64,000 nt of DNA from Anaerolineales bacterium (GTDB taxonomy: Bacteria; Chloroflexota; Anaerolineae; Anaerolineales; UBA11858): positions 6,806-70,805 of the forward strand of contig JAWODY010000084.1 of NCBI GenBank assembly GCA_046483045.1. Direction: 5' to 3'. The notes under the pieces were generated by a model that was not told the origin of the DNA, did no database searches, and saw only the letters and a program-made list of their open reading frames with translations. A program made the translations under genes and the position numbers. Shown in pieces: positions 2,780-21,326 of the stretch. How positions within the stretch are numbered: the stretch's first letter is position 1; each line of letters starts with the position of its first letter.

Positions 2780-3469
2780 TCAAGGAAGGATTTTAATCTG
2801 CATTTGGTTTAGGTAATCCCAAAGGAAGGACAAACGTTCAACAAGCGCAGAAAGCGCTGATATGTAAACGCCGGCAAATAAGACGCCGAGGGTGACGGCG
2901 ATGAAAAAGTGGCCGATTTTTCCCAGGATTTGAATCAGCGGTCGCCGTCGATCCGTTTGCCCCGGCATGTGTCCCGTGCCAAAGTGAAAATAAATTAAAG
3001 TCGTCATGGTTCCCAAAACGGTCATAAGTCCGTTCAATATCGAGAATAACGTGCTTGTTTTTGTAGGGGTTTCAAAGCTATTTATCGTGCCCAGTAACTG
3101 TGGGAAAAGGGTACCTGTGATTGCGCCGCCGATCGCGGAGGCGGCTCCAATCCCGACAAGGATGGCAACCGACCAATTTCCAGCTTTTCGGAGGGGGGTT
3201 ATCTTCATGAAAAGGAATAAGCTGGGGATGAACAACATCAAAGACAACAAACGTTCTCCTCTGGTCCCTGTGAAAAGGGGCAGAAACAAACGCGGAACAA
3301 GCACGTTGTTGATGGTAATGATCACTACGTACCCAGCGGTCACGCCGATGAAGATGTGCGAGGCAAGACGGAAAAGTGGATTATCACCCAGAATATAACT
3401 GAAAACAAGCAGCGTAAACAGAAATCCCAGGGAGAGTCCGATGAAATCGCTGAGGTTTGTTGGAGACAT
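2780..3469 (-). CDS. polytopic integral membrane protein, unknown function, 229 aa
   Basis: ATG at 3469, 1 nt after the stop of the upstream gene (3471). The translation is dominated by hydrophobic helices (FLFTLLVFSYILG, IFIGVTAGYVVIITI, AILVGIGAASAIGGAITG, etc.). Confidence 0.75.
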   Translation of the reverse strand: MSPTNLSDFIGLSLGFLFTLLVFSYILGDNPLFRLASHIFIGVTAGYVVIITINNVLVPRLFLPLFTGTRGERLLSLMLFIPSLFLFMKITPLRKAGNWSVAILVGIGAASAIGGAITGTLFPQLLGTINSFETPTKTSTLFSILNGLMTVLGTMTTLIYFHFGTGHMPGQTDRRRPLIQILGKIGHFFIAVTLGVLFAGVYISALSALVERLSFLWDYLNQMQIKILP

Positions 3470-3470
3470 G

Positions 3471-5396
3471 TCAGGAAACTCCCCTCTTTTCTTTGTTTTT
3501 TCGCTGCTTGATGAGGTTCAAGATCCCATTTGCAAGCCCTCCAATGAAGACGGTGAGTATGGTGACGATGATCCCTACATTGAGAGGGAACAAGAACACC
3601 GAGGACAGGTTTGGGCTTCCGGTTAACTCTTCGTAAGCCCTCCCCCCCGGCAGTCCGGCCGCCAAACCAGAGATCTGTTGTGGGCTGTTTTGAAAATAGG
3701 GTCTTACCAAAGGTTCTGCTTGCGCGCTGACAATCATAGCCACTTTGTACCTGGAGATGTAGGGGTTGACTTGTTCGATCCACATGCGTGCCGTGGTCGG
3801 GTCGTCAGTGATAATCAGGAATAGGTCGAAATCTGACAAGGTTTGAATCTCTTTTAAGGGTGGAGAGTCCCAGGCGTTAGCACCATTGAATGCGATAGGG
3901 ACGATCTCGCGGGGGGCGATAGAGAAACTGAGGACCCCGGCAGCTTGTCCAGGAATGTAGCCAAGGTTTATATAGTCTCTCCCGTGCTGGTATTCGAACT
4001 CGGATTGTGTGTTGGATATGAAATGTTCAGCCAGTGAAGGTCCTGTGGCTTGGGTGGAAATAAAAGCCAGGTATGATTCCTGGCGCAGTAGGTGATCGAC
4101 CACCCCTGATGCTGTGGCGTTCAATTCCCCCGCTAGGGCGGGTTGGTAGTCAAAAGCGATCAGCGCCGTGTCGCGAGCTTCCATCTCGTCGATCATCTCA
4201 TACAAAGCAGCAGGTCCCTGTTCATCTTTCAGGTGACCGCCTGTGGATGGGGGGGGCACTGCTCCCCCTCCCGTAATCACACTGGCACCGACAGATATAA
4301 TGAGCACGATGGCGATCAACCAGCGTAGGACTCTTTGGGTGGCTACTGGTTTTACTTCACCTTTCGGTTTGGCTTTGCCCTCTCGAGAGATAACGTTCTC
4401 CAAGAGGGAAGCATATTCTTTTTGCGTTTTGGATACTTGTAATTCGAAGGAAAGTTTGGAACCCTCTTCCACACTCGTCTGGTCGATATCCGCCTCGGCA
4501 GGGAGGACGCTGGGAATCCCAGCCAAAGGCCCGTAGTTTTCGATGTACTCCTCGTCTTCTGCTAGCCCTGAGGTGTCTGAAGATTCAACCACGGGACGCA
4601 TGGCTTCCACCCACCCAGGTAATTCTCCGGGGGAAATATCATCTCCCGTTTCAGCTTCCTCTTTTTCCATGTCGACAGAGGTAAGCCAACTGGGCAGTTC
4701 CTCGTCAAACAAATCATCGATGACTTCATCATCTTCATCGAGCTCAAAGGGTTGGATGGGCCCTTCGCCTGCAGGTGAAGGTTCTTCATCCTCTTCCAGC
4801 CATGAGGGAAAATGTCCTTCCTTTTCCTGGGCCGGTTCGGGTGGAGCGGTTTCTTCCTCATCCTTTTCAGATAAAATCGGTTCTGCTTCTCCCGCTTCTT
4901 CCTCTTCAGATTGAAGCCAATCCGGAAGTTCCTGCTTCTCTTCAGAGGGTGTCTTTTCAACTTTCCCTTCCCCTTCGACTTCTGACATCCAGGTGGGAAA
5001 AGTTTCTCCTTCCGGGGGTTGCTGACCTTTTTCCTCCTCCACATCCAGCGCGCGAATGCGCTTTAACCAGTCGGTGTCCTCTTTTTCCTCCTCTTCTTCG
5101 GAGGGTGTTTGTAAATCGCTGGGCTCTTCCCCTTCTTCTGCTGCATGCAGGATGTCTAACCATCCCGCTTCTTCCTCATCCTCTCCGTCCGGGATATCTT
5201 CCTGTGCCTCTCCAGGTGTGGTGTCTTGGGTATTGGAGGGAAGGTCCGAGGGGGAGTCTGTGGTGTCTGGGGATGTAGAGGGTGTTTCCTGGTTTATAGA
5301 AGGGGATTGTGAAGGCAGGGGGAAACCACAGGAATCACAAACTTCTTTTCCTTCAGGATTTATTTTTCCGCAGTTTGGACATTGTATTTTAGCCAT
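3471..5396 (-). CDS. zinc-ribbon protein with a long acidic disordered region, TM helix, about 250-aa extracytoplasmic domain and C-terminal TM helix, 641 aa
   Basis: The track ORF 3471..5726 overlaps the upstream gene. The internal ATG at 5396 gives MAKIQCPNCGKINPEGKEVCDSCGF (a CxxC...CxxC zinc ribbon) and sits 5 nt after the 5402 stop. A Glu/Asp-rich region is followed by RWLIAIVLIISVGASVI (TM) and a terminal IIVTILTVFIGGLANGIL (TM). Confidence 0.8.
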   Translation of the reverse strand: MAKIQCPNCGKINPEGKEVCDSCGFPLPSQSPSINQETPSTSPDTTDSPSDLPSNTQDTTPGEAQEDIPDGEDEEEAGWLDILHAAEEGEEPSDLQTPSEEEEEKEDTDWLKRIRALDVEEEKGQQPPEGETFPTWMSEVEGEGKVEKTPSEEKQELPDWLQSEEEEAGEAEPILSEKDEEETAPPEPAQEKEGHFPSWLEEDEEPSPAGEGPIQPFELDEDDEVIDDLFDEELPSWLTSVDMEKEEAETGDDISPGELPGWVEAMRPVVESSDTSGLAEDEEYIENYGPLAGIPSVLPAEADIDQTSVEEGSKLSFELQVSKTQKEYASLLENVISREGKAKPKGEVKPVATQRVLRWLIAIVLIISVGASVITGGGAVPPPSTGGHLKDEQGPAALYEMIDEMEARDTALIAFDYQPALAGELNATASGVVDHLLRQESYLAFISTQATGPSLAEHFISNTQSEFEYQHGRDYINLGYIPGQAAGVLSFSIAPREIVPIAFNGANAWDSPPLKEIQTLSDFDLFLIITDDPTTARMWIEQVNPYISRYKVAMIVSAQAEPLVRPYFQNSPQQISGLAAGLPGGRAYEELTGSPNLSSVFLFPLNVGIIVTILTVFIGGLANGILNLIKQRKNKEKRGVS

Positions 5397-5401
5397 GTTT
5401 A

Positions 5402-6046
5402 TTAACCCCCATAGGGACGATCCGTTCCAATTAGAATACGCAAACCTGTGGCGATGGTCCCCAGAGCGATTCCCAGCAGCAGTCCGCGAGCCCCGCCTAA
5501 GGCAGGTACTTGGACGATCCACTGACGGATCTGGGTCAGAAAGGGGACTTCCGGAGTGAAAATAGACAGTGTACCGATCAATACCATGAGGACGATGAAG
5601 AAGAAAATAACAGCGTAAGTGTGCATGTTTCTGCGCAAGAAGCGCGTGGCTGCGTATGTGAGACTGATGGCCATGACAGCCATTAAGCTGGTCTCTAAAG
5701 GAAATTGAATGTACGTGAAAAGCCAACTAATGGTCTGGAAATTGGGTTGTCCGAACATATAGCTTTGGAACATGTCAAAAAAACCGATCAGGAGGGTGGC
5801 TATCAACGCGAAGACTAATATCAAGCTGTAACCGCTGTTATCGTCATTTTGAGCCATTTTGCGGAAGTGCACCGCAAAGAGGTTCAAAATTCCCACGATT
5901 AAAGCCACAGCAGCTAAGACCAATCCAGCACGGAGGAAAAGAAAACGCAGGCTGATTAAACCGGGGATAAAGTAACCGGCCAAGACGATGACCCCAACCC
6001 CAATAGCAACCGCTGTAGCAAAGGGAGTTTTGAATTTTATATTCAC
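5402..6046 (-). CDS. polytopic integral membrane protein, unknown function, 214 aa
   Basis: GTG start at 6046 overlaps the stop of the upstream gene (a GTGA 4-nt overlap at 6043-6046). The translation is strongly hydrophobic with about 6 predicted helices. Confidence 0.75.
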   Translation of the reverse strand: MNIKFKTPFATAVAIGVGVIVLAGYFIPGLISLRFLFLRAGLVLAAVALIVGILNLFAVHFRKMAQNDDNSGYSLILVFALIATLLIGFFDMFQSYMFGQPNFQTISWLFTYIQFPLETSLMAVMAISLTYAATRFLRRNMHTYAVIFFFIVLMVLIGTLSIFTPEVPFLTQIRQWIVQVPALGGARGLLLGIALGTIATGLRILIGTDRPYGG

Positions 6047-16965: not shown

Positions 16966-16993
16966 TTGACAATAATTTAGGAAAACCTAAAAT
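16966..16993 (+). promoter_or_regulatory. promoter of the DtxR-family gene with an embedded palindromic operator
   Basis: TTGACA (16966-16971), 16-nt spacer, TAAAAT (16988-16993). The spacer contains the inverted repeat TTTAGG-aaaa-CCTAAA (16976-16991), which resembles the TTAGG/CCTAA arms of DtxR/IdeR boxes. A further TTAGGTTCA lies about 10 nt downstream. Confidence 0.5.
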
Positions 16994-17029
16994 ATGGATT
17001 AGGTTCATAAAAATTTGGAGGATGAAGGT

Positions 17030-17704
17030 ATGGAAAGCCCTGTATCCGAGAGGGTGGAAGATTACTTGAAAGTCATTTACAACTTAACGACGGAGGCTGA
17101 ACGGGCCAGCACCGGGGAAATCGCGCGAGTCCTGAAAATTTCACCAGCCTCTGTCACGGATATGATTCAACGCCTGGCTGCGGAGAACCCCCCCTTGGTG
17201 GATTACCGGAGACATCAAGGTGTGGGTTTGACAGAAGAAGGAGAAAAAGTGGCCTTGGAAACCTTACGCCATCATCGCCTTTTGGAACTTTTTTTACATG
17301 AGTTGTTGGGATATTCTTGGGATCAGGTCCATGAGGAAGCGGACCGATTAGAGCATGTGATTTCAGAGTTTTTTGAGGAGAGGATTTCTGAGGTGTTGGG
17401 GGATCCTGAAAAAGGGTTATACGGGGAACCCATCCCCTCAGAAGAACTCCACGTTCCCGTTCGAGAAGATATTTGTTTACATGATATGCGACCGGGGCAG
17501 AGGGGTGTGATTCAGTCTGTGAAAGATGATGACCCCGGACTTTTAAAATACTTGAAAACCAACGGGCTGGTTCCGGGAGCAGGGTTTGAGGTGTTGGATT
17601 ATTCCCCTTACGATAATAATTTGCGCATAAGGGTAAAGGAGCATACCCAGGAGATCGTCCTGGGCGCCGCTGTCACAGCTCAAATATTCGTTGGCCTTCA
17701 ATGA
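17030..17704 (+). CDS. DtxR/IdeR/MntR-family metal-dependent transcriptional regulator with C-terminal FeoA/SH3-like domain
   Basis: VEDYLKVIYNL, ISPASVTDMIQRL, RHHRLLELFL and WDQVHEEADRLEHVIS (metal-ligand region), plus a C-terminal GQRGVIQSV...GLVPGAGFEV FeoA-like domain. ATG 17030 lies 8 nt after GGAGG. Confidence 0.9.
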   Translation: MESPVSERVEDYLKVIYNLTTEAERASTGEIARVLKISPASVTDMIQRLAAENPPLVDYRRHQGVGLTEEGEKVALETLRHHRLLELFLHELLGYSWDQVHEEADRLEHVISEFFEERISEVLGDPEKGLYGEPIPSEELHVPVREDICLHDMRPGQRGVIQSVKDDDPGLLKYLKTNGLVPGAGFEVLDYSPYDNNLRIRVKEHTQEIVLGAAVTAQIFVGLQ

Positions 17705-17834: not shown

Positions 17835-18878
17835 ATGTTTGAGTCTTGGCTGGTTTTTACGATCGCCGCCCTGGTTTTGGGTTTGTTGGCCTACCTTTTC
17901 TGGCCTCAAAAAGAGGTGTATTGGGGATGGCAGCGGAGGCGCCGCAGAAGCGAACGGGTTCTGATTGAGGATGCCTTGAAATATTTATTCAAGTGTGAAC
18001 GTCGGGACCGGGCTTCGTCTTTGGAGAGCATCGCGGGCATGTTGTCCATCTCTATGGATCAGGCCACGGATATTATGGATCGGACCCGGGTAAGGGGGTT
18101 GGTTGAACTTGAGGATGGGGGTTTCAGGTTGACTGAAACGGGACGGAATATCGCCTTGCAGATCGTGCGGGCACACCGTTTGTGGGAGAGGTATCTGGCG
18201 GATTCCACGGGGTACGGGGAGGAGGAATGGCACCAGCAGGCAGAGGAATGGGAGCATCTCCTTTCTGCGGAAGATGTGGACCGTCTCTCAGCTCAGCTGG
18301 GCCGGCCAATTTATGACCCGCATGGAGACCCCATTCCCACGTCGCGCGGCGATCTCGTCGATCATGAGGGGAAACCTGTAACAGCGCTGGAGGAAGGAGA
18401 TCTGGCCCGGATCATTCATATTGAGGATGAGCCGGAAATGGTCTATGCCCAGATTGTGGCGGAAGGGCTCCGGCCCCATTTGGTAGTCAGGCTGGACAAG
18501 AAATCTCCCACTCGGATCGTTCTCTGGAGTGAAGACCGGGAATTTATCCTTGCTCCCATGCTCGCTGCCAACCTCTCCGTCATCCCTCTTCCCGAAGATG
18601 TTTTTGCGGAAGAGCAGCGCGGGGTACCCATGGATCGTCTCGATGAGGGGCAAATAGGAAAGGTCCTTTCCATCTCCTCTCACATTCGGGGCCTGGATCG
18701 GCGCCGGCTGCTGGATTTGGGTCTTTTACCAGGGACTGAGATCCGGGTGGAGATGATCAGTCCCAGCGGCGATCCAACAGCGTATCGCATTCGGGATTCG
18801 GTGATTGCGTTGAGAAGTACACAGACAAAGCAAATCCGTGTCCTCCCCCAGGAAAATGGGGAGGGAGTGAAGGCATAA
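17835..18878 (+). CDS. atypical DtxR-family protein: N-terminal TM helix + wHTH + dimerisation/metal domain + two FeoA domains, 347 aa
   Basis: MFESWLVFTIAALVLGLLAYLFW followed by RRRRRS (a TM helix with a positive-inside signal). IEDALKYLFKCE...RAHRLWERYLAD...WHQQAEEWEHLLS...DPHGDPIP is a DtxR core. Two FeoA-like repeats follow (GDLARIIHI...GLRPHLVV and GQIGKVLSI...GLLPGTEIRV). Confidence 0.8.
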   Translation: MFESWLVFTIAALVLGLLAYLFWPQKEVYWGWQRRRRRSERVLIEDALKYLFKCERRDRASSLESIAGMLSISMDQATDIMDRTRVRGLVELEDGGFRLTETGRNIALQIVRAHRLWERYLADSTGYGEEEWHQQAEEWEHLLSAEDVDRLSAQLGRPIYDPHGDPIPTSRGDLVDHEGKPVTALEEGDLARIIHIEDEPEMVYAQIVAEGLRPHLVVRLDKKSPTRIVLWSEDREFILAPMLAANLSVIPLPEDVFAEEQRGVPMDRLDEGQIGKVLSISSHIRGLDRRRLLDLGLLPGTEIRVEMISPSGDPTAYRIRDSVIALRSTQTKQIRVLPQENGEGVKA

Positions 18879-18935: not shown

Positions 18936-19793
18936 ATGGACCAGGAAAAAGAAAGCAGAGAAGTAAGGGATCGAGGTCAGGTTTCTGCCGTCCCTGCCCC
19001 GTGTGATACCTGCCCGGTTCATCATGCTGCCAACCTCAAGAAGCTGGGGGTGGACATGGCGGACTGGGATTTCGTGGTCGCGCTGGCTGGAAACCCGAAC
19101 ACTGGCAAAAGCACGGTGTTCAACGCCCTGACCGGCCTGCGCCAGCACACGGGGAACTGGCCTGGGAAGACAGTGACCCGGGCGGAAGGCGGAATGGAAT
19201 ACGGCGGGTATCGATTTAAGTTAGTGGACCTTCCGGGAACATATTCTCTGCTGGCGACGAGCCTGGACGAGGAGATCGCCCGGGATTTCATCCTTTTTGG
19301 GCGACCTGATGTCACCGTGGTCATGGTCGACGCCACCCGCCTGGAGCGCAACCTGAACCTCGTCCTGCAGGTCCTGGAGATCACGAACCGGGTGGTGGTG
19401 TGTTTGAATTTGATGGATGAGGCGGAGCGACACGGCTTGACGGTGGATCACCGCCGTTTAGCGCGTGATTTAGGGGTCCCTGTGGTCCCCACCGTGGCCC
19501 GCTATGATAAGGGATTTGACGACCTTTTGGATGCCATCCATGACGTCGCCACCGGTCAGGTGGTCGGTAAACCATATCACGTCCGGTACGACCAGCCTCA
19601 GGTTGACCGGGCTGTTTCCCGCTTAGAGCGCCGGATCCGGGCTGTCTTTCCCGATGTCCCCAATGCCAAATGGGTCGCCCTCCGTTTGCTGGATGGAGAT
19701 GAGCGGATTATCGAGGCGGTCGAGGAAGGGGAGTTAGGCGACCTGAAGTATGGTGAGGGCATGAGGATGGAGGAGCCTGCACCCGCTCCCTGA
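18936..19793 (+). CDS. feoB: FeoB N-terminal part: GTPase (G) domain plus helical domain, as a separate ORF
   Basis: G1 GNPNTGKST, G3 DLPG and G4 NLMD. The ORF ends with TGA at 19791-19793 and a second in-frame TAG shortly after. The start is uncertain: ATG 18936 or ATG 19056 (MADWDFVVALAGNPN), the latter giving a more typical FeoB N-terminus. Confidence 0.85.
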   Translation: MDQEKESREVRDRGQVSAVPAPCDTCPVHHAANLKKLGVDMADWDFVVALAGNPNTGKSTVFNALTGLRQHTGNWPGKTVTRAEGGMEYGGYRFKLVDLPGTYSLLATSLDEEIARDFILFGRPDVTVVMVDATRLERNLNLVLQVLEITNRVVVCLNLMDEAERHGLTVDHRRLARDLGVPVVPTVARYDKGFDDLLDAIHDVATGQVVGKPYHVRYDQPQVDRAVSRLERRIRAVFPDVPNAKWVALRLLDGDERIIEAVEEGELGDLKYGEGMRMEEPAPAP

Positions 19794-19889: not shown

Positions 19890-21326
19890 ATGACCGATAG
19901 AGAGGTATCAAAGGAAGACATTATAGAGGAGGCAAGGGCGCTGCGGTGGGAGGTGGGGGGAGATTTTCATGAGAAAATCATGGAGTCCATCTATGCCGAC
20001 GCTGCCCGGATTGCGGATCGGGCGGTGACCCGCGAAGATGAGCAGGGAGGGTTTGATTTCGACCGCTTTTTAGATCAGGTGGTGACCAGTAAGGTATTGG
20101 GTTTTCCTCTCATGCTGCTGATGCTGACCCTCGTTTTCTGGTTGACTATCAGCGGGGCGAATGTGCCCTCCCGTTTGCTGTCCAGTCTTTTGCTGGATAC
20201 GGTCCAACCTCTCCTGAAACAGGCCTCAGATATGGTCGGTTTGCCTGGATGGTTGGACGGTGTCCTGATCGACGGAGGCTACTTGGCGACCGCCTGGGTC
20301 ATCAGCGTCATGCTGCCGCCCATGGCCATTTTCTTTCCCCTCTTTACGCTGCTGGAGGACTTTGGGTACCTGCCCCGGGTTGCCTTCAACCTGGACAATC
20401 TCTTTCGGAAGGCCGGTGCGCACGGCAAACAGGCGTTGAGCATGACTATGGGATTTGGATGCAATGCAGCAGGGGTGGTTTCCACGCGGATCATCGACAG
20501 CCCCCGGGAACGCTTGATCGCCATCATCACCAATAACTTCGCCCTCTGCAACGGGCGCTGGCCGACCCAGATCTTGATCGCCACCCTTTTCGTCGGCAGC
20601 CTGGTGCCGGCTTATCTGGCGGGCTTGATCTCTGCCCTGGCGGTGGTGAGTATTGCTCTGTTAGGGGTGCTGCTGACTTTCGCGGTCTCTTGGGCGCTGT
20701 CCCACTCGGTCCTCAAGGGTGAACCCTCCACCTTCAGTCTGGAGTTGCCTCCCTACCGTCCGCCCCGGGTCCTGCAGACCCTGTATACCTCATTGATCGA
20801 TCGCACATTGATCGTCCTGTGGAGGGCTGTGGTCTTCGCTTTACCTGCAGGGATGGTGATCTGGGTCATCGCCAATGTCAATGTGGCCGGGACCAGCATC
20901 GCCGAACACCTCATCCAATTCTTGAATCCTTTGGGTGTGCTGATCGGACTCAACGGCGTGATCCTTGTGGCCTATATCGTGGCCATCCCCGCCAATGAGA
21001 TTGTCATCCCAACTGTGCTCATGCTCACCGTGATGACCGCCGGATTGTCCGGGGTGGGAGAAGGAGCGGGGGTAATGTTTGAATTGGAATCCGCGTCCAA
21101 GACGATGGAGATCTTCCGGGCCGGGGGGTGGACGTTGTTGACCGGTGTGAACCTGATGCTCTTCAGCCTGATCCACAACCCCTGCAGCACGACCATTTAT
21201 ACAATTTACGAAGAAACGAAGAGCGCCAAGTGGACCGCGGTGGCTGCCCTGCTCCCTCTGGGAATGGGATTTTTGGTCACCCTTTTTGTGGCCCAGATCT
21301 GGAGATTGGTGGGAGGGTTGTTGTAA
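19890..21326 (+). CDS. feoB: FeoB C-terminal part: polytopic membrane (gate/nucleoside-recognition) domain, as a separate ORF
   Basis: 478 aa, highly hydrophobic, with FeoB-type segments ([46 protein letters not shown]). It has its own RBS GAGGAAAGG upstream of the ATG. Confidence 0.85.

What the first reader, a model, noticed from the sequence alone, without database searches (positions are those of the whole stretch)
17835..18878. Predicted membrane-tethered DtxR fused to two FeoA domains, immediately upstream of feoB
The ORF begins with a clear hydrophobic helix followed by an Arg cluster (WGWQRRRRRSE). It continues with a complete DtxR wHTH and dimerisation/metal-binding core (RAHRLWERYL, AEEWEH, DPHGDPIP) and ends with two tandem FeoA/SH3-like domains instead of the usual one. 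There is no alternative ATG before the HTH, so the TM helix appears to be part of the protein. A DNA-binding metalloregulator anchored in the membrane and carrying the FeoB-partner domain twice, next to feoB, suggests a protein that doubles as the FeoA component of the transporter and/or couples transport activity to regulation, in ToxR/CadC-like logic. A conventional soluble DtxR paralogue sits directly upstream (17030..17704).
Basis: partly seen in the sequence, partly recalled or inferred. Interest (0 to 1): 0.6.

Follow-up and report, generated by a model that had tools for sequence, protein, structure and literature searches.

The report
Membrane-anchored metal-sensing FeoA subunit
This gene encodes a membrane-anchored relative of the DtxR/MntR metal-sensing repressors that keeps its metal sites but apparently not its DNA-reading surface. 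It carries the only FeoA domain of the adjacent FeoB metal importer, so it probably controls the transporter rather than a promoter.

Summary
The ORF 17835..18878 (347 aa) is real and built as described. It has an N-terminal Nout-Cin anchor helix, a DtxR-fold winged helix, an intact dimerisation and metal-binding domain, DtxR's own SH3-like domain, and one extra canonical FeoA domain. It belongs to a large uncharacterised family: about 500 clusters at 50% identity, in at least 8 phyla. In 69 of 69 testable loci the gene lies directly upstream of a FeoB gene whose G-domain carries a CxxCP(A/V)H extension.

The ToxR/CadC-like reading is not supported. DNA-contact positions are variable and acidic in this family, whereas they are conserved in the soluble paralogues. 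Three operator classes found upstream of the cassettes covary with the recognition helix of the soluble paralogue, not with this protein. In the window, the box TTTAGG-AAAA-CCTAAA sits inside a near-consensus promoter in front of the soluble dtxR. The same genome has a canonical Fe-type dtxR-feoA-feoB locus in which a plain FeoA occupies the slot this gene occupies here.

Best reading (confidence 0.6): a DtxR fold re-used as a membrane-tethered, Mn2+/Fe2+-sensing FeoA subunit of a split FeoB importer. The closest studied relative is the soluble P. gingivalis PgMntR. This is a new variant of a known kind. Every functional step is inferred.

The parts
16966..16993 (+). Sigma-70-like promoter of the operon: TTGACA, 16 nt, TAAAAT (11 of 12 matches)
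   Evidence: No terminator-like site or further promoter-like site lies between it and feoB.
16972..16995 (.). DtxR/MntR-type operator palindrome ATAATTTAGG-AAAA-CCTAAAATAT between the -35 and -10 hexamers
   Evidence: The exact box is unique in the genome. The same TTTAG(G/C)-N4-(C/G)CTAAA box lies upstream of related cassettes in several phyla.
17030..17704 (+). Soluble DtxR/MntR-type repressor with Mn-type ligands (D and E in place of DtxR's M10 and C102); likely reader of the operator
   Evidence: Pfam Fe_dep_repress 1.5e-14, Fe_dep_repr_C 1.7e-26, FeoA 4.8e-15. The recognition helix SPASVTDM fits the TTTAGG operator class.
17835..18878 (+). The finding: membrane-anchored DtxR-like metal sensor with an SH3-like domain and a terminal FeoA domain (347 aa)
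17838..17903 (+). N-terminal anchor helix (residues 2-23), Nout-Cin
   Evidence: KD 2.24 and Hessa -2.29. AF2 helix 2-21. Positive-inside bias in 63 of 63 members.
17904..17957 (+). Conserved juxtamembrane segment W23-P24-x-x-G27-x-x-W30 plus the Arg cluster (residues 24-41); it continues into helix alpha1
   Evidence: W23, P24 and W30 are invariant and G27 nearly so in A2. AF2 shows one long helix 28-56.
17964..18134 (+). Degenerate winged helix (residues 44-100): fold kept, DNA-reading residues not
   Evidence: No PF01325 match. Contact columns: entropy 2.86 vs 1.69 bits, acidic fraction 22.5% vs 7.3%. D75, D79 and D82 lie on the recognition helix.
18132..18341 (+). Dimerisation and metal-binding domain (residues 100-169) with invariant H114, E118, H133, E140, H141, D161, H163 and near-invariant E137
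   Evidence: Pfam Fe_dep_repr_C 5.8e-27. Ligand columns.
18390..18590 (+). SH3-like domain 1 (DtxR domain 3) with the family-specific invariant H195-I-E197-D198-E199-P200
   Evidence: It scores 15.4 bits against FeoA, below the cut-off.
18624..18842 (+). Canonical FeoA domain (residues 264-336) on a flexible linker
   Evidence: Pfam FeoA 66 bits. Matches to solved FeoA structures. Linker 255-260 has pLDDT below 50.
18936..19793 (+). FeoB-N: G-domain plus helical domain as a separate protein, with an N-terminal C23-D-T-C26-P-V-H29-H30 extension (19002..19025)
   Evidence: Pfam FeoB_N 2.9e-60. CxxC extension in 64 of 74 related loci.
19890..21326 (+). FeoB-C: polytopic permease half (Gate, FeoB_C)
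   Evidence: It is a separate ORF in about two thirds of related loci and fused in the rest.

Best explanation
The product is a single-pass, Nout-Cin membrane-anchored homologue of DtxR/MntR. It has been re-used as the FeoA-type accessory subunit of the adjacent FeoB-type divalent-metal importer, which from the ligand set is more likely to carry Mn2+ than Fe2+.

Shown by computation:
- The anchor helix, the retained DtxR fold, the intact metal-ligand set and the terminal canonical FeoA domain.
- The obligatory position directly upstream of feoB.
- The degenerate DNA-contact surface.
- A separate soluble paralogue whose recognition helix tracks the operator.

Inferred:
- The protein dimerises at the inner face of the membrane.
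- It binds cytoplasmic Mn2+/Fe2+ at the DtxR sites.
- Through the tethered FeoA domain, and perhaps the acidic ex-DNA surface, it engages the FeoB G-domain, so that transport is tuned directly by cytoplasmic metal (product feedback). Transcription of the four-gene operon is repressed by the soluble DtxR at the TTTAGG-N4-CCTAAA box in the promoter.
For: Architecture and topology.

The family is large and conserved over its full length, including the helix: 6398 hits of which the top 120 are about 340 aa, 502 clusters at E<=1e-30, and at least 8 phyla.

The family is a single clade against all soluble paralogues, SH-aLRT 99.

Metal ligands are invariant.

Loss of DNA reading:
- PF01325 is not matched, whereas the paralogue scores 1.5e-14.
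- The soluble motifs PASVT..KKL and K-Y-R-G are replaced by variable or acidic residues.
- wHTH net charge is -2.4 vs +0.5, Mann-Whitney p=8e-7.
- Contact-column entropy is 2.86 vs 1.69 bits.

Three operator classes covary with the soluble paralogue's helix only.

Every one of 16 genomes lacking an adjacent soluble dtxR still has a canonical PF01325 protein elsewhere.

FeoA role:
- 69 of 69 loci are followed by FeoB-N, with no other FeoA nearby.
- The own genome's second locus is Fe-type dtxR, an 82-aa feoA, and a full-length feoB.

Mn leaning:
- D46 and E137 sit at the positions of DtxR M10 and C102.
- The best solved relatives are Mn sensors: Mtb MntR, DR2539, ScaR, SloR.
- PgMntR pairs with the Mn transporter FeoB2 (PMC4805248).
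Against: There is no experimental datum for any member.

The wHTH fold is under purifying selection and keeps some basic residues (R83, R85, R87 here), so non-specific or divergent DNA binding is not excluded. Recognition helices can diverge and still bind.

The same operator also occurs upstream of cassettes that lack an adjacent soluble dtxR, so on position alone the TM protein could be its reader there.

The anchor is not tied to the FeoB split, since FeoB is fused in about a third of loci. A simple 'tether for the free G-domain' role therefore cannot be the whole story.

The statistics treat related sequences as independent. The loci are the best 80 of about 600 or more pattern matches.

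No complex model could be computed.
Confidence: 0.6

Rival explanations
1. It is a true membrane-tethered transcription factor. The metal-loaded dimer binds an operator at the membrane, and the FeoA domain couples that activity to FeoB.
For: The wHTH fold is fully retained. The metal sites that activate DNA binding in DtxR proteins are intact. Operators occur upstream of cassettes with no adjacent soluble dtxR. PgMntR, the soluble twin-FeoA relative, does bind its promoter (PMC4805248).
Against: PF01325 is not matched. Contact positions are variable and acidic, while the operator is conserved across phyla. The operator class tracks the soluble paralogue only. Canonical DtxR proteins exist in all 16 genomes checked. 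There is no periplasmic domain, so the protein has no ToxR/CadC-type architecture.
Confidence: 0.15
2. It is an anti-repressor or sequestration device. Through the conserved dimerisation domain it forms heterodimers with the soluble DtxR paralogue and holds it at the membrane, linking transporter state to transcription in the manner of Mlc-PtsG.
For: The dimerisation domain is strongly conserved. The soluble paralogue is adjacent in most loci.
Against: The two proteins are only about 29% identical and form separate clades. Many cassettes have no adjacent paralogue. This reading does not explain the obligatory FeoA domain and feoB linkage.
Confidence: 0.1
3. It is purely a structural FeoA donor and membrane tether. 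The DtxR core is only a dimeric scaffold, and its metal sites are structural rather than regulatory.
For: The FeoA slot and the obligatory feoB linkage. FeoB is often split, so a tether for the G-domain would be useful.
Against: All regulatory-site ligands are invariant, and the family has an extra invariant H-x-E-D-E motif in SH3 domain 1. That conservation argues for functional metal binding. The anchor also occurs with fused FeoB.
Confidence: 0.12
4. It is an annotation artefact. The true start lies downstream of the hydrophobic segment, or the helix is a cleaved signal peptide, giving an ordinary soluble twin-FeoA DtxR.
For: A GTG at codon 28 is in frame.
Against: The helix, the FWPxxG motif and the positive-inside bias are conserved at protein level in 63 of 63 members from many phyla. 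There is a good SD before the ATG at 17835 and none properly spaced before the codon-28 GTG. A secreted DtxR/FeoA body would make no sense, because its ligands and its partner are cytoplasmic.
Confidence: 0.03

Closest known systems
PgMntR (PG1044) of Porphyromonas gingivalis, with FeoB2 (PG1043); PMC4805248
   Same: Both have a DtxR core followed by two SH3/FeoA domains, and both are encoded in one operon with a FeoB-type transporter that has no FeoA of its own (Mn2+ in P. gingivalis). The extra potential ligands listed for PgMntR's first FeoA domain (H166, D169, E170) have the spacing of H195, D198 and E199 here. This last point rests on the paper's residue numbers, not on an alignment made here.
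   Different: PgMntR is soluble (310 aa, DNA-binding domain at residues 13-65), binds its own promoter in EMSA, and has a mixed D/C ligand set. The window's protein has an N-terminal anchor helix, a degenerate recognition helix and wing, a pure Mn-type D/E set, a separate soluble repressor next to it, and a split FeoB.
Canonical FeoA of FeoAB(C) systems (E. coli, Vibrio cholerae; B. fragilis FeoA-FeoB fusion, PMC8980893)
   Same: The terminal domain is a bona fide FeoA (66 bits) encoded directly upstream of feoB. Natural fusions of FeoA to other Feo parts are known.
   Different: Here FeoA is fused to a membrane anchor and a complete metal-sensor body rather than being a free 75-aa protein or the N-terminus of FeoB.
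Soluble DtxR/MntR/IdeR/ScaR/SloR metalloregulators (e.g. Mtb MntR 5zr4, D. radiodurans DR2539 8pvt)
   Same: The fold (TMt up to 0.90), the dimerisation domain, the primary and ancillary metal ligands, and the SH3-like third domain.
   Different: This protein is membrane-anchored, is not recognised by the DtxR N-terminal DNA-binding model, has variable and acidic DNA-contact positions, and carries an extra FeoA domain.
ToxR/CadC-type membrane-bound one-component regulators
   Same: A winged-helix fold attached to a single TM helix.
   Different: The order is reversed (anchor at the N-terminus), there is no periplasmic sensor domain, and the winged helix is of DtxR rather than OmpR type and probably does not read DNA.

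Membership tests
DtxR/MntR family metalloregulators | Fe_dep_repr_C dimerisation and metal-binding domain | tested here: met
   PF02742 94 bits against a cut-off of 27. Foldseek top hits are SloR, MntR, IdeR and ScaR.
DtxR/MntR family metalloregulators | Conserved metal ligands (equivalents of DtxR H79, E83, H98, C/E102, E105, H106 and M/D10) | tested here: met
   H114, E118, H133, E140 and H141 are invariant. E137 is present in 51 of 63 and D46 in 60 of 63.
DtxR/MntR family metalloregulators | N-terminal DtxR-type wHTH DNA-binding domain (PF01325) | tested here: not met
   No PF01325 hit for the whole protein or for the isolated domain, whereas the paralogue scores 54 bits. The fold is retained.
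DtxR/MntR family metalloregulators | Metal-dependent binding to a palindromic operator | not testable with these tools
   In silico evidence is against it: variable and acidic contact columns, and operator classes that covary with the soluble paralogue only. An EMSA is needed.
Twin-FeoA DtxR subfamily (PgMntR type) | DtxR core followed by two FeoA/SH3 domains | tested here: met
   SH3 domain 1 at 186-252 (NCBIfam MntR model to residue 250; FeoA 15.4 bits alone). FeoA domain 2 at 264-336, 66 bits.
Twin-FeoA DtxR subfamily (PgMntR type) | Soluble protein that binds its own promoter | tested here: not met
   The TM anchor is conserved in 63 of 63 members. DNA reading is probably lost. The family forms its own clade, apart from the soluble twin-FeoA protein of L071.
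FeoA (PF04023) accessory proteins of Feo systems | FeoA domain above Pfam's cut-off | tested here: met
   66.1 bits against a cut-off of 23. Matches to solved FeoA chains.
FeoA (PF04023) accessory proteins of Feo systems | Encoded next to feoB as the locus's FeoA | tested here: met
   69 of 69 loci, with no other FeoA within +-5 kb. The own genome's canonical locus has a free FeoA in the same slot.
FeoA (PF04023) accessory proteins of Feo systems | Physical interaction with the FeoB G-domain | not testable with these tools
   No multimer prediction is available. It needs a two-hybrid assay, a pull-down, or AF-Multimer.
ToxR/CadC-like membrane-bound transcription factors | Cytoplasmic DNA-binding domain, TM helix, and a periplasmic sensor domain | tested here: not met
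   A mean of only 1.8 residues precede the uncharged helix, so there is no exoplasmic domain.

The most novel reading that the evidence does not exclude
A whole branch of the DtxR transcription-factor family (about 500 clusters at 50% identity, in at least 8 phyla) has stopped reading DNA. It has become a membrane-anchored allosteric subunit that lets a FeoB-type importer sense cytoplasmic Mn2+/Fe2+ directly. The retained repressor metal sites would switch the FeoA domain, and possibly the acidic former DNA face acting like FeoC, on or off the FeoB G-domain. This would give immediate product feedback on uptake, in parallel with transcriptional repression by the soluble paralogue.
Probability: 0.4. 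Interest if true: 0.8.

Novelty: new variant of a known kind. Interest (0 to 1): 0.62.

Why it matters
What FeoA does for FeoB, and how Feo transport is switched off when the cell has enough metal, are open questions in bacterial metal uptake. This family is a natural construct in which FeoA is covalently joined to a complete metal sensor and a membrane anchor. That makes the idea of metal-gated FeoA-FeoB control directly testable.

It would also be a clear case of a transcription-factor fold converted into a transporter subunit, with the ancestral job kept by a neighbouring paralogue. Cultured carriers exist: Maribacter caenipelagi CECT 8455, M. polysiphoniae DSM 23514 and Melioribacter roseus.

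Tried and rejected
1. The anchor as a tether needed because FeoB is split. Rejected as the sole reason, because FeoB is one open frame in about 23 of the loci that carry the anchored protein.

2. An inter-subunit metal site between C54/H50 of this protein and the CxxC extension of FeoB-N. There is no association (Fisher p=0.72 and 0.70).

3. A regulon for the TTTAGG-N4-CCTAAA box in the own genome. The exact box is unique. There are three one-mismatch sites against 25 for the reversed control pattern, and the one in the window (2808-2823) lies inside a coding region. All three were taken as chance.

4. The wHTH as FeoC-like. No FeoC or other informative Pfam match was found for the isolated domain, so this remains only an analogy.

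5. Direct similarity between FeoA domain 2 and the genome's free FeoA. BLASTP was not significant, although both match PF04023 strongly.

6. Transcript or start-site evidence.

7. Literature. No paper in the library describes a membrane-anchored DtxR-FeoA protein or a split FeoB.
Full report
OBSERVATION

The ORF 17835..18878 (+) exists, starts with ATG, and encodes 347 aa. A GAGGTG Shine-Dalgarno sequence ends 5 nt before the ATG.

Residues 4-22 have a Kyte-Doolittle 19-residue mean of 2.24. Residues 5-23 have a summed Hessa insertion energy of -2.29, which is TM grade. They are followed by W-P-Q-K-E-V-Y-W-G-W-Q-R-R-R-R-R.

Pfam finds Fe_dep_repr_C at 100-169 (5.8e-27) and FeoA at 264-336 (2.9e-18). 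It does not find the DtxR N-terminal DNA-binding domain PF01325, which the upstream paralogue matches at 1.5e-14.

An NCBIfam MntR model covers residues 48-250. On its own it reaches only 15.4 bits against FeoA, below the cut-off of 23. What is extra is one canonical FeoA domain at the C-terminus.

An AlphaFold2 model (pLDDT 84) shows the following:
- helix 2-21
- one long helix 28-56
- a helix-turn-helix with a beta wing (63-99)
- the DtxR dimerisation helices
- two beta-barrel domains, joined by a linker of low confidence (255-260)

Foldseek places the model with SloR, MntR, IdeR and ScaR, and superposes the first two domains on D. radiodurans DR2539 with TMt 0.90 and rmsd 1.5 A.

The next in-frame ATG is codon 69, inside the HTH. 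A GTG at codon 28 has no properly spaced SD.

The soluble paralogue (17030..17704) is as described. So is feoB, 57 nt downstream, except that FeoB is split into a G-domain protein (18936..19793) and a permease (19890..21326).

IS THE HELIX REAL, AND WHICH WAY ROUND?

The protein has thousands of full-length relatives of about 340 aa, named 'DtxR family Mn-dependent transcriptional regulator' or 'FeoA domain-containing protein' by their sources. The nearest come from Anaerolineales.

In alignments the hydrophobic helix and a juxtamembrane motif (F-W-P-x-x-G-x-x-W) are conserved. W23, P24 and W30 are invariant.

I analysed 63 members recovered from genomes of Chloroflexota, Acidobacteriota, Ignavibacteriota, Bacteroidota, Gemmatimonadota, Verrucomicrobiota, Calditrichota and Actinomycetota. 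The results were:
- The uncharged stretch is 17-29 residues long.
- On average 1.8 residues and 0.08 Lys+Arg precede it.
- On average 4.5 Lys+Arg lie in the 15 residues that follow it.
- All 63 obey the positive-inside rule.

This is an uncleaved Nout-Cin anchor with essentially nothing outside the cell, not a signal peptide. The DtxR body and the FeoA domain are cytoplasmic.

A profile search of 1.84 billion cluster representatives gives 502 clusters at E<=1e-30. The best 150 are almost all 330-360 aa and match from the first profile positions.

Within a sample of 301 Chloroflexota genomes the gene is patchy: 15 genomes in 8 of 172 genera, mostly in the window's own order. The FeoB halves are 55-77% identical across phyla, against 35-50% for this protein. 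Together these points suggest that the cassette moves horizontally (inference).

CONTEXT

A near-consensus promoter (TTGACA, 16 nt, TAAAAT; 16966-16993) precedes the soluble dtxR. No terminator-like site follows before feoB. Between its hexamers lies the palindrome ATAATTTAGG-AAAA-CCTAAAATAT, which is unique in the genome.

In 69 of 69 related loci with enough downstream sequence, the anchored gene is followed at once by FeoB-N. No other FeoA-like sequence lies within 5 kb.

FeoB is split in about two thirds of these loci and is one frame in the rest, mainly Gemmatimonadota and some Acidobacteriota. The anchor is therefore not simply a device for a split FeoB.

The FeoB-N of this clade carries a conserved N-terminal extension, C-x-x-C-P-(A/V)-H. 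Here it is C23-D-T-C-P-V-H-H30, and 64 of 74 loci have a CxxC.

The window's genome (2.73 Mb, 91% complete) has only three DtxR-family genes. The third heads a second, canonical locus on another contig. That locus holds:
- a DtxR with iron-type ligands (Met and Cys at the positions of DtxR M10 and C102)
- a free 82-aa FeoA
- a full-length 644-aa FeoB without the extension

In the window's cassette both DtxR-like proteins have the manganese-type pair (D46, E137). The anchored protein sits exactly where the free FeoA sits in the canonical locus.

DOES IT STILL READ DNA?

I aligned the 63 anchored proteins with 42 soluble paralogues taken from the same loci.

The soluble proteins conserve the recognition helix (S/A)-P-A-S-V-T-x-M-x-K-K-L and the wing K-Y-R-G. 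The anchored proteins have no conserved residues at the corresponding positions. Their wing consensus is E/Q, G/A/E, D/G, G.

| Measure | Anchored | Soluble |
|---|---|---|
| Mean entropy at 13 DNA-contact-equivalent positions (bits) | 2.86 | 1.69 |
| Mean entropy at structural-core columns (bits) | 1.04 | 0.68 |
| Acidic residues at contact positions | 22.5% | 7.3% |
| Net charge of the wHTH | -2.4 | +0.5 |

The contact positions were mapped from DtxR S37, P39, T40, S42, Q43, R47, R50, the wing, and R27/A28. The DtxR numbers come from my knowledge of the DtxR and IdeR DNA complexes. The mapping comes from the phmmer alignments. The charge difference gives Mann-Whitney p=8e-7, but the sequences are not independent.

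In the window's protein, D75 and D79 sit at the positions of DtxR P39 and Q43.

Upstream of the cassettes I found three operator classes: TTTAG(G/C)-N4-(C/G)CTAAA, TTTAAGC-N2-GCTTAAA and TTTTGAT-N2-ATCAAAA. The recognition helix of the soluble paralogue changes with the class: P-A-S-V-T, then N/Q-A-A-x-T/S, then P-G-T-A-T. The helix of the anchored protein shows no class-specific pattern.

All 16 genomes whose cassette lacks an adjacent soluble dtxR carry at least one canonical PF01325 protein elsewhere.

On the shared DtxR core, the anchored family is one side of a branch with SH-aLRT 99. The other side holds all the soluble proteins, including the anchor-less twin-FeoA protein of Actinomycetospora chlora (L071), which has a canonical HTH. 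The anchor and the degenerate helix thus arose together, once.

By contrast, every metal ligand is kept. H114, E118, H133, E140, H141, D161 and H163 are invariant, and D46 and E137 nearly so. The family adds an invariant H195-x-E197-D198-E199 in the first SH3-like domain.

MECHANISM

The best-supported reading is division of labour after duplication. The soluble paralogue is the Mn2+-dependent repressor of the four-gene operon. The anchored protein is the FeoA-type subunit of the importer.

Shown:
- its architecture and topology
- its retained metal sites
- its linkage to feoB
- the decay of its DNA-reading positions

Inferred:
- It dimerises on the inner face of the membrane.
- It binds cytoplasmic Mn2+ or Fe2+.
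- It uses the flexibly tethered FeoA domain, and perhaps the acidic former DNA face, to engage the FeoB G-domain. Uptake would then be tuned directly by the cytoplasmic metal level.

I put 0.6 on this overall. Broken down, that is about 0.75 for 'FeoA subunit of this FeoB', about 0.65 for 'no specific operator binding', and about 0.4-0.45 for allosteric metal gating.

The metal is more likely Mn2+ than Fe2+, for three reasons:
- the ligand set
- the best solved relatives are Mn sensors
- in P. gingivalis the comparable regulator pairs with the Mn transporter FeoB2 (PMC4805248)

This too is inference.

RIVALS

- A genuine membrane-tethered repressor (0.15). The fold and metal sites are intact, and some cassettes have no adjacent soluble dtxR.
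- A device that sequesters the soluble paralogue through the conserved dimer interface (0.10).
- A purely structural FeoA tether (0.12).
- A mis-called start (0.03).

Each is set out in its own section, with the result that would refute it.

COMPARISON WITH WHAT IS KNOWN

The closest studied protein is PgMntR of P. gingivalis (PMC4805248). [quoted passage not shown] It binds its own promoter in EMSA.

The potential ligands listed there for its first FeoA domain (H166, D169, E170) have the same spacing as H195, D198 and E199 here. This comparison uses the paper's residue numbers, not an alignment made here.

The window's protein differs from PgMntR in four ways: the anchor, the degenerate DNA surface, the separate repressor, and the split FeoB.

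A survey of Feo evolution notes FeoA proteins with an additional domain or with two FeoA-like domains, but mentions neither DtxR nor a membrane anchor (PMC8749426). Full-text searches found no description of the anchored family or of a split FeoB.

Against ToxR/CadC-type regulators the membership test fails, because there is no periplasmic domain.

Notes of earlier agents of this scan on other genomes reach the same reading. They are not independent evidence. My reading was already stated, in the same call that returned the first of those notes.

LIMITS

- There are no experimental data for any member.
- The statistics do not correct for phylogeny.
- The loci are the best 80 of about 600 or more pattern matches.
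- No multimer prediction was available.

VERDICT

This is a new variant of a known kind: a widespread, undescribed branch of the twin-FeoA DtxR proteins. Interest 0.62.

Noticed in passing
window 18936-19793 and 19890-21326: FeoB is encoded as two ORFs, a G-domain plus helical domain and a permease, 96 nt apart. The split is conserved in about two thirds of related loci from several phyla. FeoB is one open frame in the rest, mainly Gemmatimonadota and some Acidobacteriota.
   Followed up: partly
window 19002-19025 (FeoB-N residues 23-30): A conserved N-terminal extension C-x-x-C-P-(A/V)-H(H/N) lies about 25 residues before the P-loop of FeoB-N. A CxxC is present in 64 of 74 related loci and absent from the genome's canonical FeoB. 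It is probably a small metal-binding knuckle of unknown role. It shows no covariation with C54 or H50 of the anchored protein.
   Followed up: partly
window 16966-16995: A near-consensus sigma-70 promoter has a TTTAGG-AAAA-CCTAAA palindrome between the -35 and -10 hexamers. Related cassettes carry one of three operator classes, and each class covaries with the recognition helix of the soluble DtxR paralogue.
   Followed up: yes
L100 (own genome, contig C57:51800-56200): 764-1474, 1494-1742, 1739-3673: A second, canonical Feo locus in the same genome. It holds a DtxR with iron-type ligands (Met/Cys), a free 82-aa FeoA, and a full-length 644-aa FeoB whose start overlaps the feoA stop.
   Followed up: partly
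L071 (Actinomycetospora chlora JCM 17979) 5001-5978: An anchor-less twin-FeoA DtxR with a canonical HTH lies upstream of the same split-FeoB clade, in a cultured actinomycete. It looks like the PgMntR-type state of the cassette and would be a useful comparator.
   Followed up: partly
window 17835-18878, residues 50-55: Helix alpha1 of the anchored family carries conserved H50 (45 of 63), C54 (29 of 63) and E55 (46 of 63). These are absent from soluble paralogues and could form a further metal site. The window's protein has Y50, C54 and E55.
   Followed up: no
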